From: an uncultured Planctomycetota bacterium
Lineage (GTDB): Bacteria > Planctomycetota > Planctomycetia > Isosphaerales > Isosphaeraceae
Assembly (NCBI GenBank): GCA_963845755.1
Contig: CAWJTV010000007.1
Coordinates: forward strand, 11,925 to 75,924
Length of the DNA: 64,000 nt
Reading direction: 5' to 3'
Position numbers and translations under genes: made by a program. This document shows positions 240 to 23,062 of this stretch, piece by piece. How positions within the stretch are numbered: the stretch's first letter is position 1; every line of letters begins with the position of its first letter. Below the pieces are notes generated by a model, which worked only from the letters and a program-made list of their open reading frames with translations, made no database searches and had not been told where the DNA came from.

Positions 240-313
240 GCACCCGTAGCTCAACTGGATAGAGCATCGGTCTACGGAACCGAAGGTTACTGGTTCGAAT
301 CCAGTCGGGTGTA
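240..313 (+). tRNA. tRNA-Arg (anticodon ACG), CCA not encoded; likely integration site
   Basis: Acceptor GCACCCG/CGGGTGT-A, D arm GCTC..GAGC, anticodon arm TCGGT-CTACGGA-ACCGA, T arm ACTGG-TTCGAAT-CCAGT. Confidence 0.95.
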
Positions 314-423
314 TTTGACATAACATCCGCCGAAAGCAAGACTTAGCTTACCTGTCGAATCCGACAGAGCGGCCCCTTTCAAACCCAAGAAAGCCGGTAG
401 TCTACCGGATTTGGGGCCGTACC

Positions 424-1635
424 ATGCATGCACAAGCCTCCCGCGTTCCCTCCTACCGACTCCATAAACCGACGGGCCTGGCGGTCGTGACGATCGGCGG
501 TTGTGACGTCTATCTGGGCAAACACGACACTCCCGAGAGCCGGGCCGAGTATGATCGGCTCATCGCCGAATGGTTGGCGACTGGCCGACGTTCCATGACG
601 GCCAACGCGGCCTCCGGGGCCGATCTCACCATCAACGAATTGCACCTGGCGTACGTCCATCACGCCGACAGCTACTATGTCAAGAACGGCAAACCGACAA
701 CGGAGCCGGTGAACATCCGATTGGCTCTCCGGCCTCTCCGCCAACTTTACGGGCACACCCTGGCTCGAGAGTTCGGGCCTCTCCGGCTCAAGACCGTTCG
801 CAAGGCGATGATCGACTCTGGCCTCTGTCGGAGCGAGGTCAACAAACGGGTCCGACACGTCCTCCGGGCGTTCAAATGGGCCGTTGGTGAGGAGATGGTC
901 CCTCCATCCCTCCATCACGGCCTGAAAGCCGTCCCGGGCCTCCGCCGGGGCCGGGCCGACGTCCGGGAATCGGAGCCGGTCAAGCCGGTCCCTGATGCTT
1001 TCGTGGATGCAATCCAGCCTCACATCTCCCGCCAGATTTGGGCTATAGTCCAACTCCAACGCCTCTCCGGCATGCGGCCTGGGGAGGCTTGCATCATGCG
1101 GACGATCGACATCGACACGACCGGCCGTGTGTGGGTCTACACGCCGGAATCCCACAAGACTGAGCACCACGGCCGGGAGCGACGGATCTATCTCGGCCCC
1201 GCGGCCCAAGAGATTCTCCGGCCGTGGCTCCGAACCGAGTTGACGGCCTACCTGTTCTCTCCGGCCGAAGCGGAGGCCGAACGTCGGGCCGAACAGAGGG
1301 TAAGGCGGGAAACCCGGGTCCAACCGTCGCAAGTGAGTCGACGGAGGCGGAAGCCCAGCAAGGCTCCCGGCCAACGTTACACGGTTGATTCGTACCGGCG
1401 AGCGATCGAGTACGGCATCAAGTGGGCAAATCGGGAGTCAGGAAGGGATGAGACTCGCGCAATTCCGCACTGGCATCCGCACCAGCTCCGGCACAACGCC
1501 GCGACCCGCCTGCGTCGGGAGTTCGGCCTCGACGTCGCACGGGCGGTCCTCGGGCATAGTTCGCCGGCAGTGACGGAAGTCTACGCCGAGCTCGATCACG
1601 CCAAGGCCGCCGACGCCATGGCGAGGATCGGCTGA
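424..1635 (+). CDS. Tyrosine recombinase / phage-type integrase
   Basis: GMRPGE (R), HKT (K), HQLRH (HxxR), LGH, EVY (Y); 110 bp downstream of the tRNA. Confidence 0.95.
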   Translation: MHAQASRVPSYRLHKPTGLAVVTIGGCDVYLGKHDTPESRAEYDRLIAEWLATGRRSMTANAASGADLTINELHLAYVHHADSYYVKNGKPTTEPVNIRLALRPLRQLYGHTLAREFGPLRLKTVRKAMIDSGLCRSEVNKRVRHVLRAFKWAVGEEMVPPSLHHGLKAVPGLRRGRADVRESEPVKPVPDAFVDAIQPHISRQIWAIVQLQRLSGMRPGEACIMRTIDIDTTGRVWVYTPESHKTEHHGRERRIYLGPAAQEILRPWLRTELTAYLFSPAEAEAERRAEQRVRRETRVQPSQVSRRRRKPSKAPGQRYTVDSYRRAIEYGIKWANRESGRDETRAIPHWHPHQLRHNAATRLRREFGLDVARAVLGHSSPAVTEVYAELDHAKAADAMARIG

Positions 1636-2083
1636 CCCGTCGCCAGGCACCGGGCATGATGGGCCTATCCATCGGTTTTGCGACATCACCGAGTGACGCC
1701 ACCAAGCTGGCCGGCCACCGGTTCCGCCTTCCGTGCTGGGCCTGGCCGGCCGCTCTGGCCGCCGTCCACGGCGGTCTCGTGGGAATGGCCCTGATGCTCG
1801 TCCTCGGCCTCCACGAGGCCGCCAGGCTCGTCCACGGGCCGTGGCGAGACCCGGCCAAGCGGATCATGGACAACCCCTACGCGAAGGTCGTCCTCGCCGA
1901 CGAGCCGGATGATGTCCGTGCCGGCGGCGACCCGCCTGGCTTCGAAAACACAAAGACCGTCGTGTATCAGGACACGACGACCGACCAGCGCCTGTTCTCG
2001 AAGGCCTTCGGGGAGGGCCCGGACACCGGCAAGGGCGAGACCTATACGATGCCCGCCCCTGGTTCGGCGGCAAGACGTCGCCG

Positions 2084-2413
2084 TTGACGACGAGGATGAA
2101 GACGAATGACGGCCATCACCGTCACGATCGAGGACCAAATACCGGAAAGCCGAAGGACTGCCGCAAACGCGCCGTCGCCCGGGCCGTCAACCGCCAACTC
2201 GACCCCGAGCTCAAATCGCGCGTCGGCCGGCACGTGGTCTTGATCGAGAAGGACGAGCCGTCCATCTTCAACAGCCCGTTGTGGTCGGCCCACCTGTCGG
2301 CCGTCGCCCGCGAGCTCGTCGCGCGGATCGACATGAAGGGCTGCGACCCAGAGCCAACCCCCGTGACCTTCGACGCCGACATCCCGGCCGAATACCTGAG
2401 GAGCTCGACATGA
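2084..2413 (+). CDS. Hypothetical protein
   Basis: 109-aa ORF; its stop overlaps the next ATG (ATGA at 2410-2413). Confidence 0.4.
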   Translation: MTTRMKTNDGHHRHDRGPNTGKPKDCRKRAVARAVNRQLDPELKSRVGRHVVLIEKDEPSIFNSPLWSAHLSAVARELVARIDMKGCDPEPTPVTFDADIPAEYLRSST

Positions 2414-20561: not shown

Positions 20562-20706
20562 GAGACAGGAATGGCGACCTCACGCTAATCGAGCGGCTAC
20601 TCGCCGCCGGACATGATGTCCGCAGCGTCTTCCAGAGACAGGAATGGCGACCTCACGTTAATCGAGCGGCTACTCGCCGCCGGACATGATGTCCGCAGCG
20701 TCTTCC
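20562..20706 (+). repeat. Tandem duplication, period 73 bp, 1 mismatch
   Basis: gagacaggaatggcgacctcacg(c/t)taatcgagcggctactcgccgccggacatgatgtccgcagcgtcttcc at 20562 and 20635. Confidence 0.95.
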
Positions 20707-21204
20707 GAGTCGTCGAGGTCGAGACAGGCCGCTGGATTTCGGGGAATGCTCCGCACCCTCGTCCTTCAATCCGCCGGCGCCACACCGAACCATCCGGACG
20801 ATCGGGTGACGAACGTGCCATTCCTCAGCCGGCAATCGATGGAGGTCGGGCGGGCCGCGCGACGGCCGTGGGCGGGCATCAACGTCTGGCTCGGTTCGAG
20901 CGGGACGATCCCGTCTCTCGAGCGGCGTCGGGTTCTCCACGTGGCGGCGAACGGGTTGGCGGCCCTTGGGACGCCGGCCCCGGCGAAAGGCGGAGGAAAC
21001 GGCCAGGACGTCTCGGCCGGAGCTGGGCCAGAGGCCGCAGGCGCAAGGCCCGGAACGTCGATCTCGAGGCTTCCGATTCTGCCCGATTCGAGAATCTTGA
21101 GATGATCGTGGCGGGGCGGTACCCTCCCGCGGAATCCGGGTAACGCGCATGAGGTCGTCACACAACGACGCGAATCACGACCGTCTGACTGGAGATCGAT
21201 CAGA

Positions 21205-22631
21205 ATGGCGAAAACCAGGTCGAGAAGTGCGCCGAAAAGTCGGCGGCGTAAGCGGTCACGGGTGGCGCCCCCCGTTGACAGATGCGGCGCGCCGCCGGGG
21301 TTGACCCCGCGTGACCCGACTCGCGGAGTCGTTGACGCGGCCATCGAGCCCTGGCAGATCGTCGACGCCGAGCCCCCTCGAATTTCAACCGGCGCCGAAC
21401 CAACCGCGGGGCGGAACTCCGACGCGTTCCCGACGGCAGACCAATTGGAGGCGATCGAGACGCGGATCGCGGCGCACCTCCAAAGGATTCGAAAAGCCTT
21501 CCGCATCGCGATCGACGAGCGGATCGCCGTAGGTAAGTGCCTCGGGGAGGCGAAGAGGATTTGCGAGCACGGTCGATGGCTCGCCTTTCTGAAGCGATTC
21601 GGCCTCAACGATCGCACGGCCCAGGAGTGGATGCGCTTCGCTGAGCATGAGGCGCTCATCAAGGAAAAAACGCACGGTCGTGCGGATTTGACGGTCGAGG
21701 CCGTGCGGAAGATGCTGCCTTCCTCGAGGAAGGCGACCGGTCAAGGACGAAAGACGGGGTCGGCCAACGGCTCGGGCCCGGGCTGCGGCGGTGCACGCGA
21801 TCGCACCCCTGATGACGGGGCTGGCTCGACGATCGGAGCGGGGGATCGACGCGACGCGACGACCGGGGCCTCCGCGGACGCCCCGCAGGGTTCCGACGCG
21901 AATCCGGCTACCGATGGGCCGGACGAAACTGTAGCGACGGATGCGTCGGAAGGGCCGGCGAGCGAGTCCCTGTGCGACGGCGACTGCGGCGACGGGGGCC
22001 GTCCCGCCGACGCAACGGGCAAGGATGCCAGGACGGGGGACGAGACCGCTTTGGGGCCGGAAACGGCATGCCGTGGCGACGCCGCCCGGTCGAAGGCCGA
22101 CGACGATGGGGAGTCGGTCGCAACTACGGCGGGATCGCCCGAGGAGACGGTCCACCGCCATGCGGCGTCGGAACGGTGTGATGCACCGGCAACGGGAAAT
22201 CCGAAGGCGCCTCCCGATCGGGGTGGCGACAACGCACGCGACGGCGTCGGGGAGTCCGCGGCGGCCACGACCGGTGGGCCGGAACGGGCGCATGCCGGCT
22301 CCTCGTCGTGGGCCGAGGAGCTGTCGCTCGAGGACGTCCCGCTTCGCGACCAGCTCGCCGATCCCACCATCTTCGACGCCCTGGCGAGACTCGAGCATCT
22401 GGCCAGGCCCCACTTCGCGGTCCTGGAGAAGCTCCTCGACGATGCGACGATTCAGTGGCATCTGAAGAACGCGGAGTTCAGGGCCCTGTCGATCGCAGTC
22501 CTGATCCACCGGCTGGTCAGTGTCCCCTCTTGCAAGTCGTGGATCCTCTGCTGGCGATGCCACGGCAATGGAAAGGCGGCCGGGGGGAATGCCTGCATGA
22601 CTTGCGGGGCGCGGGCTGCACCTTCCAATAG
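21205..22631 (+). CDS. DUF3102-type protein with low-complexity linker and C-terminal CxxCxGxG Zn finger (3' end uncertain; ORF track runs to 22893)
   Basis: IAVGKCLGEAKRICEHGRWLAFLKRFGLNDRTAQEWMRFA; CWRCHGNG..CMTCG. Confidence 0.7.
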
Positions 22632-23062
22632 CCTCAAATGTCCTCGCCCAGCCGCCTGGCATGTCCGCGGCCGTCGTTTCCGTCGCAGGTTGGCCCGCGC
22701 ATGGGCCATCGCCGTATCGGGGCTCTGCCAGCAGGGGGCACGACACACCATCGTCCTTGCGGCCCTTCCCCGGCCTGATCGGCCGGTTCGTAAGGATCCG
22801 GTTGAACGGTCGTGCCGGCGGCGGAGAAGCGTCATGGACAGGCGAGTATCGACAGGCGCCCTCGAGGCAAATGGGGCGTCGGTGAACGAGTGACGGAGAG
22901 CGGCCCGGGGGGATAAGTGGCCTCAAAGGCCGTACACGCCGACGCCCGGGGACGTGGAGGATGAAAAGAGATGTGCCCCCGATCGATGAATGGGGACAGG
23001 GCGGGCTCGACCTGCCAAGGTCCGGATGCGGCCCTCGACCTCGTCCCTGGATCCCACCGCGC

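What the first reader, a model, noticed from the sequence alone, without database searches (positions are those of the whole stretch)
240..22900. tRNA-Arg integrative element built around an intron-less RT, two HUH-less Rep-like proteins, ParB, a dead helicase and HIRAN
Seen: an integrase next to tRNA-Arg, Rep-like A (2917), a DUF1580-type HTH, co-oriented ParB - helicase-like - RT - HIRAN (11395-16388), convergent Rep-like B plus a coupled RWDGG protein (17762-19653), and a DUF3102-type gene. No capsid, T4SS, primase or DNA polymerase gene was recognised. Known: tRNA-anchored islands usually replicate with a primase/helicase or an HUH Rep. Inference: this is a distinct element class in which the RT occupies the core replication/maintenance module rather than being cargo. 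The right boundary is not defined.
Basis: partly seen in the sequence, partly recalled or inferred. Interest (0 to 1): 0.8.

Follow-up and report, generated by a model that had tools for sequence, protein, structure and literature searches.

The report
Island-borne RT with dead-helicase partner
A large DNA island inserted at a tRNA gene carries an intron-less reverse transcriptase that, across many planctomycete bacteria, travels with a helicase-shaped protein lacking ATP-binding motifs and with a conserved triple hairpin, an untested three-part module that likely helps the island maintain or copy itself.

Summary
The island is at least 87.6 kb; its right att site lies on another contig, supported by synteny in a congener. 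The conserved core is not the Rep-like genes. It is RT plus an upstream UvsW/XPB-fold protein without Walker A or DExH motifs (54 of 67 RT-selected loci; sometimes fused to the RT), plus a covarying ~85-nt triple hairpin that sits just before or just after the RT. The module often lies near tRNA-anchored integrases in Planctomycetia (RT in 52 of 400 genomes). It belongs to the lineage of G2L5 RTs, named in 2008 and uncharacterised in the papers found; their unexplained ~500-aa extension is this helicase-like protein. The window's RT is in a sister clade with an intact DD site and some RNase H fusions. Rep-like, RWDGG, HIRAN and DUF3102 genes are accessory. That the RT replicates the island is not shown: a DN clade keeps the whole module. 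This scan noted a similar DN-type cassette in another genome (e1-9906374). New variant of a known kind.

The parts
240..313 (+). tRNA-Arg(ACG); bases 270-313 are the left att core. The right att copy (44 bp, 100%) is at G000:C47:256178-256135, with a second 45-bp 89% copy 1 kb further on
   Evidence: flanks are 3.2 kb apart in congener G046
424..1635 (+). Tyrosine integrase; 62-64% identical to integrases beside tRNAs in the G031 and G069 RT islands
   Evidence: dN/dS 0.26 against G031
2917..3897 (+). Rep-like A (accessory); start uncertain, my gene caller prefers 3139
5808..6113 (+). DUF1580 HTH, likely excisionase-like; replaced by an HTH_17 protein in other islands
   Evidence: excisionase role inferred
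6882..8954 (+). RecQ helicase (cargo), between two 225-bp direct repeats (6345-6567, 9115-9335, 77% alike); second copy on C6
9426..10832 (-). Transposase-like ORF, 30% identical to multi-copy ORFs on C11, C13, C27; no Pfam match
11395..12432 (+). ParB-like protein (frequent, not obligate: 10 of 40 well-flanked RT loci); a partial duplicate lies at 11115-11324
12434..14054 (+). HEL: UvsW/XPB-fold SF2 protein without Walker A or DExH; core partner of the RT; here in two ORFs (12434-13054, 12987-14054) with frame changes near 12970 and 13780
14480..15820 (+). Group II-like RT, 446 aa, RVADD site, own N-terminal extension and thumb; compensated frame change about 14630-14712; DD sister clade of G2L5
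15790..15873 (+). Conserved triple hairpin; hairpin 1 capped by GCTCCGC (15800-15806); overlaps the RT stop codon
16044..16388 (+). HIRAN-domain protein (accessory; next to the RT only here and in G069 among the loci)
17762..18655 (-). RWDGG protein (accessory, no family match; 97% copy on C6)
18631..19653 (-). Rep-like B (accessory; Cys cluster, no HUH, RYP tyrosine kept; 96% copy on C6)
21205..22893 (+). DUF3102 protein (accessory; copy on C6)
45920..54046 (-). Part of a second recurring gene block of these islands (unnamed ORFs; continues with an AAA ATPase on C47); interrupted by transposases

Best explanation
The window holds the left arm of a tRNA-Arg island of at least 87.6 kb whose RT, ATPase-less UvsW-like partner and triple hairpin form a conserved module that likely acts as one nucleoprotein unit serving the island itself, most likely by recognising the hairpin as a cis-acting site and priming or stabilising DNA synthesis on the excised circle. 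Shown: island and att sites, the near-obligate RT-HEL pairing including fusions, purifying selection on both genes, the covarying hairpin, absence of a recognisable intron, intact catalytic aspartates in this clade, RNase H fusions in close relatives. Inferred: excision by the integrase and HTH; physical RT-HEL contact (from fusions only); that the hairpin is bound as RNA or single-stranded DNA; that HEL holds an R-loop or branched substrate without hydrolysing ATP; that RT extends and RNase H (fused or host) trims a primer that host enzymes then use. Whole-island retrotransposition is unlikely at 40-110 kb.
For: HEL lies within 2.5 kb of the RT in 71 of 84 loci with enough upstream DNA; 17 of these were picked through HEL, leaving 54 of 67. 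Of 20 loci fetched for HEL, 17 have a family RT beside it. HEL and RT are one ORF in three loci. dN/dS 0.17-0.35 for RT and 0.16-0.56 for HEL. Among 40 well-flanked loci (6 picked through HEL, window included) 19 have an integrase, 13 an integrase beside a tRNA of 9 kinds, 12 an Xis-like HTH, 10 ParB. All four other islands tested have att pairs. The hairpin sits either about 40-220 nt before the RT or right after the RT domain, including inside the RT-RNase H coding linker, as expected of a position-tolerant cis site rather than a terminator. Best fold match of HEL is T4 UvsW (Z 19.2, rmsd 3.4, 237 aligned), known (recalled) to act on R-loops at T4 origins. No family RT in the viral collection; no defence-RT model fits better than generic ones.
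Against: A well-supported DN clade (13 rows, support 99) keeps HEL (30 of 30 loci, 16 of them picked through HEL), often the hairpin and purifying selection, so polymerase activity may not be the conserved function. Some RT islands carry other replication genes: Prim-Pol in L086, a DnaB-like gene in G107, DUF927 in G069. 21 of 40 well-flanked loci show no integrase with my profile within the DNA held. The same integrase family sits at five other tRNAs of this genome without the RT. A DD subclade keeps the hairpin but lacks HEL. In G107 RT and HEL are 54 kb apart. No excision, circle, RNA or cDNA data were obtained. The window's own HEL and RT carry frameshifts that may be real decay.
Confidence: 0.4

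Rival explanations
1. The module is an anti-phage or anti-plasmid system of the retron/DRT type: RT makes a short cDNA from the hairpin RNA, and the dead helicase is the sensor or effector partner; islands simply carry it.
For: RT + structured RNA + dedicated partner is the retron/DRT layout (recalled; PMC8632793 passages, note 25% of G2L RTs lie near defence genes). Patchy distribution, 52 of 400 class genomes.
Against: The module sits near integrase, HTH and ParB rather than among defence genes; HEL has no recognisable toxic or nuclease domain; PADLOC DRT models score far below generic RT models; the DN clade is hard to fit to cDNA signalling.
Confidence: 0.27
2. The RT is a G2L4-like DNA repair or joining enzyme that, with HEL (and HIRAN, RecQ here), repairs breaks or resolves recombination intermediates of the island; the hairpin is only autoregulatory.
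For: G2L4 RT does microhomology-mediated end joining (10.1101/2022.03.14.484287, abstract and passages). HEL resembles UvsW/XPB; HIRAN and RecQ are nearby. An I/V residue in place of Y/A at the active site recurs.
Against: The RT is far from G2L4 (E 5e-17 against 5e-48 for GsI-IIC). HIRAN and RecQ do not recur with it. A hairpin inside the RT-RNase H coding linker is an odd place for simple autoregulation.
Confidence: 0.13
3. RT-HEL-hairpin is itself a small retroelement, or the remnant of a strongly diverged intron, that inserts into islands.
For: Derived from group II intron RTs; RT orientation flips relative to HEL and integrase in G031, G001, L060; RNase H fusions recall retroelements.
Against: One or two copies per genome; no Rfam intron domain in 19 loci; no conserved flanking DNA beyond the ribosome-binding site and the hairpin; no terminal repeats seen, the hairpin is on one side only.
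Confidence: 0.1
4. One reading: a compact element of about 23 kb replicated by the RT together with the two Rep-like proteins.
For: G069 has the same order integrase-HTH-Rep-like-ParB-HEL-RT-HIRAN; 5 of the 11 other family genomes with a Rep-like gene also have the RT.
Against: The island is at least 87.6 kb; Rep-like genes are within 10 kb of the RT in 3 of 40 loci and occur in other mobile regions without it; the Rep B block is duplicated on C6 without the RT.
Confidence: 0.07

Closest known systems
G2L5 group II-like RTs (Simon and Zimmerly 2008, PMC2602772; Toro and Nisa-Martinez 2014, PMC4244168)
   Same: Planctomycete RTs without a recognisable intron; same thumb; the ~500-aa N-terminal extension of ZP_01854760.1 is the HEL protein (the L262 ORF reads identical to it by eye and scores 215 bits on the HEL profile and 221 on the RT profile). 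Sister clades in my tree.
   Different: The window's RT keeps DD rather than DN and HEL is a separate gene. The passages I read do not describe the helicase fold, the hairpin, RNase H fusions or the island context.
Group II intron RT/maturase (class C, GsI-IIC)
   Same: Best solved-structure match, E 4.7e-48, with RT0 and RT1-7.
   Different: 148 bits against a TIGR04416 cut-off of 300; no domain V/VI RNA; own N-terminus and thumb; low copy number.
G2L4 repair RT
   Same: Free-standing intron-derived RT with an altered YADD motif.
   Different: YIDD versus V/YADD; much weaker match; G2L4 is reported from Proteobacteria (PMC4244168 passage).
Retrons and DRT systems
   Same: RT, structured RNA and a fixed partner protein.
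   Different: RT is of the group II type; retron and DRT models score far below cut-off; no msr-msd layout recognised; located by the integrase.
tRNA-targeted integrative islands (IME/ICE/PICI-like)
   Same: Tyrosine integrase at a tRNA 3' end, 44-63-bp att repeats, Xis-like HTH, ParB, cargo.
   Different: No relaxase, T4SS or capsid family found in the proteins scanned; RT-HEL sits where a primase/helicase often does (recalled).
T4 UvsW / archaeal XPB SF2 helicases
   Same: Two RecA domains plus the N-terminal region (Z 19.2 and 16.2).
   Different: 0 of 52 HEL sequences have GK[TS] or DExH/D at the motif positions.

Membership tests
G2L5 (strict) | Group II-like RT without recognisable intron RNA | tested here: met
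G2L5 (strict) | DD to DN change at the active site | tested here: not met
   Window RVADD; 58 of 59 close homologues DD
G2L5 (strict) | ~500-aa N-terminal extension fused to the RT | tested here: not met
   The homologous protein is encoded by the separate upstream gene
G2L5 lineage (broad) | Clade with G2L5 apart from group II intron RTs | tested here: inconclusive
   DN and DD clades group together with SH-aLRT 83 only, quick tree, few outgroups, no clade test; the shared partner and thumb support it independently
Group II intron | Ribozyme domains V/VI flanking the ORF | tested here: not met
   0 of 19 loci; positive control found at window 33855
Group II intron | TIGR04416 curated cut-off | tested here: not met
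   148 of 300 bits
Retron / DRT | Class-specific RT profile | tested here: not met
   NCBIfam retron and Drt models 20-23 bits against cut-offs of 235-390; PADLOC
Retron / DRT | cDNA product and anti-phage activity | not testable with these tools
   needs experiments
tRNA-targeted integrative island | Integrase at a tRNA with duplicated 3' end and joined flanks in a relative | tested here: met
   four further islands
ICE / IME | Relaxase and/or T4SS | tested here: inconclusive
   None among proteins scanned with Pfam, but one search covered 144 of 226 called ORFs, my gene caller is crude and the own island has a contig gap
HUH rolling-circle Rep (Rep A/B) | HUH-Rep fold | tested here: inconclusive
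   Top matches SIRV1 ORF119 Z 7.5 (rmsd 4.8, 110 aligned), Helitron Z 5.7, FBNYV Rep Z 5.2; all under 8; Foldseek nothing at E<=0.001
HUH rolling-circle Rep (Rep A/B) | His-hydrophobic-His motif | tested here: not met
   No such conserved motif in 18 aligned sequences; RYP tyrosine mostly kept; motif placement is my inference
Active SF2 helicase (HEL) | Walker A and DExH/D motifs | tested here: not met
   0 of 52

The most novel reading that the evidence does not exclude
A phylum-specific class of large integrative islands whose replication or transfer origin is run by a domesticated intron RT: a hairpin RNA or DNA site beside the RT gene is bound by RT and an ATPase-dead UvsW-like cofactor, with RNase H processing, giving an RT-primed origin in bacteria and a tyrosine-integrase plus RT-RNase H gene set otherwise known (recalled) from eukaryotic DIRS-type elements.
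Probability: 0.22. Interest if true: 0.88.

Novelty: new variant of a known kind. Interest (0 to 1): 0.64.

Why it matters
G2L5 has been an unexplained three-sequence group since 2008 and was left out of later classifications as unsupported (PMC4244168 passage). This work ties it to a much larger lineage, identifies its extension as an ATPase-dead UvsW-like protein, adds a catalytically intact sister clade with RT-RNase H fusions, a covarying hairpin and a defined mobile-island context. That makes its function directly testable in cultured planctomycetes. If the module primes island replication it would be a new use of RT; if it is defensive it is a new RT defence type. The intact and RNase H-fused enzymes are also candidate tools.

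Tried and rejected
Rfam: nothing at gathering score in 19 RT loci except a tRNA; at E<=1 only a chance mraW match in 14 loci. No conserved ORF or long conserved RNA in the HEL-RT gap besides the hairpin and a weaker CGTCC/GGACG stem. Hairpin as a terminal repeat on both sides of the RT: rejected, it occurs on one side. Hairpin as a genome-wide repeat: a descriptor with only 24 of 56 recall gave 77 scattered hits in this genome and no copy family. Search for long RT fusions covered only 1370-3910 aa and found none, so it missed the ~950-1000-aa fusions. Viral contigs: 27 pattern matches, none confirmed. Sequencing runs: no RNA holder listed; the one DNA holder gave short pieces that do not cover the frameshifts or att sites, so excision and the reality of the frameshifts are open. 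Foldseek on Rep B gave nothing. RWDGG: only unnamed low-confidence Atlas clusters. G109's ten RT copies were dropped from the family count because they group with introns. Literature: eight searches found no paper on this module; most subscription journals are not searched, the 9,141-RT dataset of Toro 2019 was not seen, supplementary file 1 of PMC2602772 was not searched and bioRxiv supplements are closed, so a prior classification (for example G2Lb) cannot be excluded.
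Full report
Observation. The window is G000:C7:11925-75924. tRNA-Arg(ACG) lies at 240-313. Pfam supports the integrase, DUF1580 HTH, RT, HIRAN and DUF3102 calls, gives only sub-threshold ParB matches, and finds nothing for Rep A, Rep B, RWDGG or the helicase-like ORFs; it also shows an unlisted RecQ at 6882-8954.

Boundaries. A 44-bp exact copy of the tRNA 3' end lies on contig C47 (256178-256135), with a degenerate second copy 1 kb on. 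In congener G046 the DNA left of the tRNA maps to C2:1132686-1134640 and the DNA beyond the C47 copies to C2:1126916-1129481, same strand, 3.2 kb apart; G046 gave no RT or HEL match. The island is therefore 63.7 kb on C7 plus 23.9 kb on C47, at least 87.6 kb. It holds kinases, repeat proteins, transposases, a true group II intron and an AAA-ATPase block. All four other RT islands tested have att pairs, 39.5, 74.8, 97 and 109 kb apart.

The RT. Homologues start at the codon matching 14480 and share an N-terminal H-x-G-x3-DFLRRH stretch, RT0-7 and their own thumb. The first catalytic Asp is kept in 59 of 59 and DD in 58 of 59 close homologues. The best solved match is GsI-IIC, but the TIGR04416 score is half the cut-off, and 7 of 26 aligned members are fused to RNase HI. 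Rfam finds no intron in 19 loci while finding the window's real intron. The family occurs in 10 of 120 other family genomes after dropping G109, 52 of 400 class genomes, 8 of 400 in a phylum-wide sample, and not in the viral collection.

The partner. The upstream gene (HEL) is a single ORF of about 470-500 aa in relatives. Its model, made from the G031 copy (pLDDT 82.5), matches T4 UvsW (Z 19.2) and XPB; 0 of 52 sequences keep Walker A or DExH/D. HEL is in 10 of 120 family genomes, 9 shared with the RT, and in 46 of the 53 class genomes with the RT, own genome included. It lies within 2.5 kb of the RT in 54 of 67 RT-selected loci (71 of 84 less 17 picked through HEL), and 17 of 20 loci fetched for HEL have the RT beside it, 16 of them DN. 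Both genes are under purifying selection in every pair tested. Exceptions: G107 has them 54 kb apart, G011 gave no HEL match, and one DD subclade lacks HEL. The window's HEL and RT have four frame changes in 3.4 kb; repeat copies in this assembly differ by 1.8 gap openings per kb, so these may be errors. HEL is 'dead' by family-wide motif loss, not by these breaks.

The hairpin. GCT[C/T]CGC occurs within 250 nt upstream (to 30 nt downstream) of the RT start in 44 of 81 loci against 687 of 7650 background windows. In most loci that lack it there, including the window, it lies 1310-1355 nt after the start, at the end of the RT domain or inside the RT-RNase H linker. It caps a bulged stem followed by two more hairpins, often then a U-rich run (window z -2.4, others -2.9 to -6.4). 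On 56 instances 86% of cells pair with 71 double changes, 0 of 500 shuffles reaching that and slid controls at 27-47%; the stem is formed by 42 of 56 instances against 38 of 509 control copies of the motif. Caveat: instances were picked by the motif, so its two inner pairs are invariant by construction, three doubtful or duplicate groups were dropped before alignment, and sequences are related. No Rfam family matches.

What is accessory. Among 40 well-flanked loci, Rep-like genes are within 10 kb in 3, ParB in 10, an Xis-like HTH in 12, an integrase in 19, and an integrase beside a tRNA in 13. Rep-like genes occur in 11 of 120 family genomes, mostly in other mobile regions. RWDGG matched 1 of 120. 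The RWDGG-Rep B-DUF3102 block is duplicated on C6 without the RT. Rep B models closest to HUH Rep domains at Z 7.5 or less and has no HUH motif. Only G069 repeats the window's full gene order.

Relation to what is known. PMC2602772 (passages; supplement part) defines G2L5 by DN and a ~500-aa extension from three planctomycete sequences. The L262 ORF reads identical to ZP_01854760.1 and matches both my HEL and RT profiles, so the extension is HEL; two more fusions were seen. A quick tree gives a DN clade (99) and a DD clade holding the window (94), together at 83 against intron RTs. The window sits in a 22-row clade (97) with most RNase H fusions. PMC4244168 (passages) left G2L5 out as unsupported; PMC8934634 (passages) called two of them G2Lb or CRISPR-like; PMC8632793 (passages) describes a different G2L cassette. 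Eight searches found no description of this module.

Mechanism. I commit, at 0.4, to an island-housekeeping unit: RT and HEL bind the hairpin as a cis site and prime or stabilise DNA synthesis on the excised element. Position near integrase, HTH and ParB, the hairpin's tolerance of either side of the gene, the UvsW fold and RNase H fusions point that way. The DN clade and islands with their own Prim-Pol or DnaB-like genes point against polymerisation being the essential step. Defence (0.27), repair (0.13), an autonomous retroelement (0.10) and the Rep-centred 23-kb element (0.07) remain. No relaxase, T4SS or capsid family was found in the proteins scanned, so how the islands spread is unexplained. 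UvsW's role at T4 origins, DIRS elements and usual island replication genes are recalled, not from calls.

Verdict. Real feature; new variant of a known but uncharacterised kind; interest 0.64.

Noticed in passing
window 31993-33943: A true group II intron (RT-maturase, Rfam RF00029) inside the island, with identical-scoring copies on C34, C36 and C42.
   Followed up: partly
window 45920-54046; G000:C47 (L006:11080-12555); G000:C6:2400-12800: A recurring block of unnamed ORFs with an AAA ATPase, shared by several RT islands (G069, G107, G192, G368, G462, L060, L101) and present a second time on C6 with a Rep A homologue; may be a second backbone module or a transfer function.
   Followed up: partly
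L005:19285-20000 and L006:335-2503 (right arm of the island): Cluster of thymidylate synthase-like, aGPT-Pplase3/ADDT and IrrE-like peptidase genes, suggesting DNA base hypermodification cargo.
   Followed up: no
G000:C6:108264-116589 and C5:505223-506288: Recent duplicates of window 16550-22619 (up to 96%), RecQ (78%) and 16199-17266 (91%), showing block shuffling between islands in one genome.
   Followed up: partly
window 6345-6567 and 9115-9335: 225-bp direct repeats (77%) bracketing the RecQ gene.
   Followed up: no
window 20562-20706: 72-bp tandem duplication, 98.6% identical, absent as a pair from the C6 copy's alignment.
   Followed up: no
G000:C17, C44, C40, C2, C20: Five more integrases of the same family (36-44% identity) beside tRNA-Ala, -Thr, -Ile, -Gly and -Pro, several frameshifted, none with the RT.
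   Followed up: no
L113, L115, L130, L135, L141, L143, G505, G561, G809: A DD subclade of the RT without HEL; most of these keep the upstream hairpin, and several have a 55-80-aa ORF upstream; possibly a different system using the same RNA.
   Followed up: partly
G000:C20 and C41: Large tRNA arrays (36 genes at C41:590256-593662); another array lies 3.5 kb from the RT in L068.
   Followed up: no
L229, L230, L228, L231: Rep-like homologues in phage-like or integrase-linked regions of other Isosphaeraceae-level relatives, a wider HUH-less Rep-like family worth its own study.
   Followed up: partly
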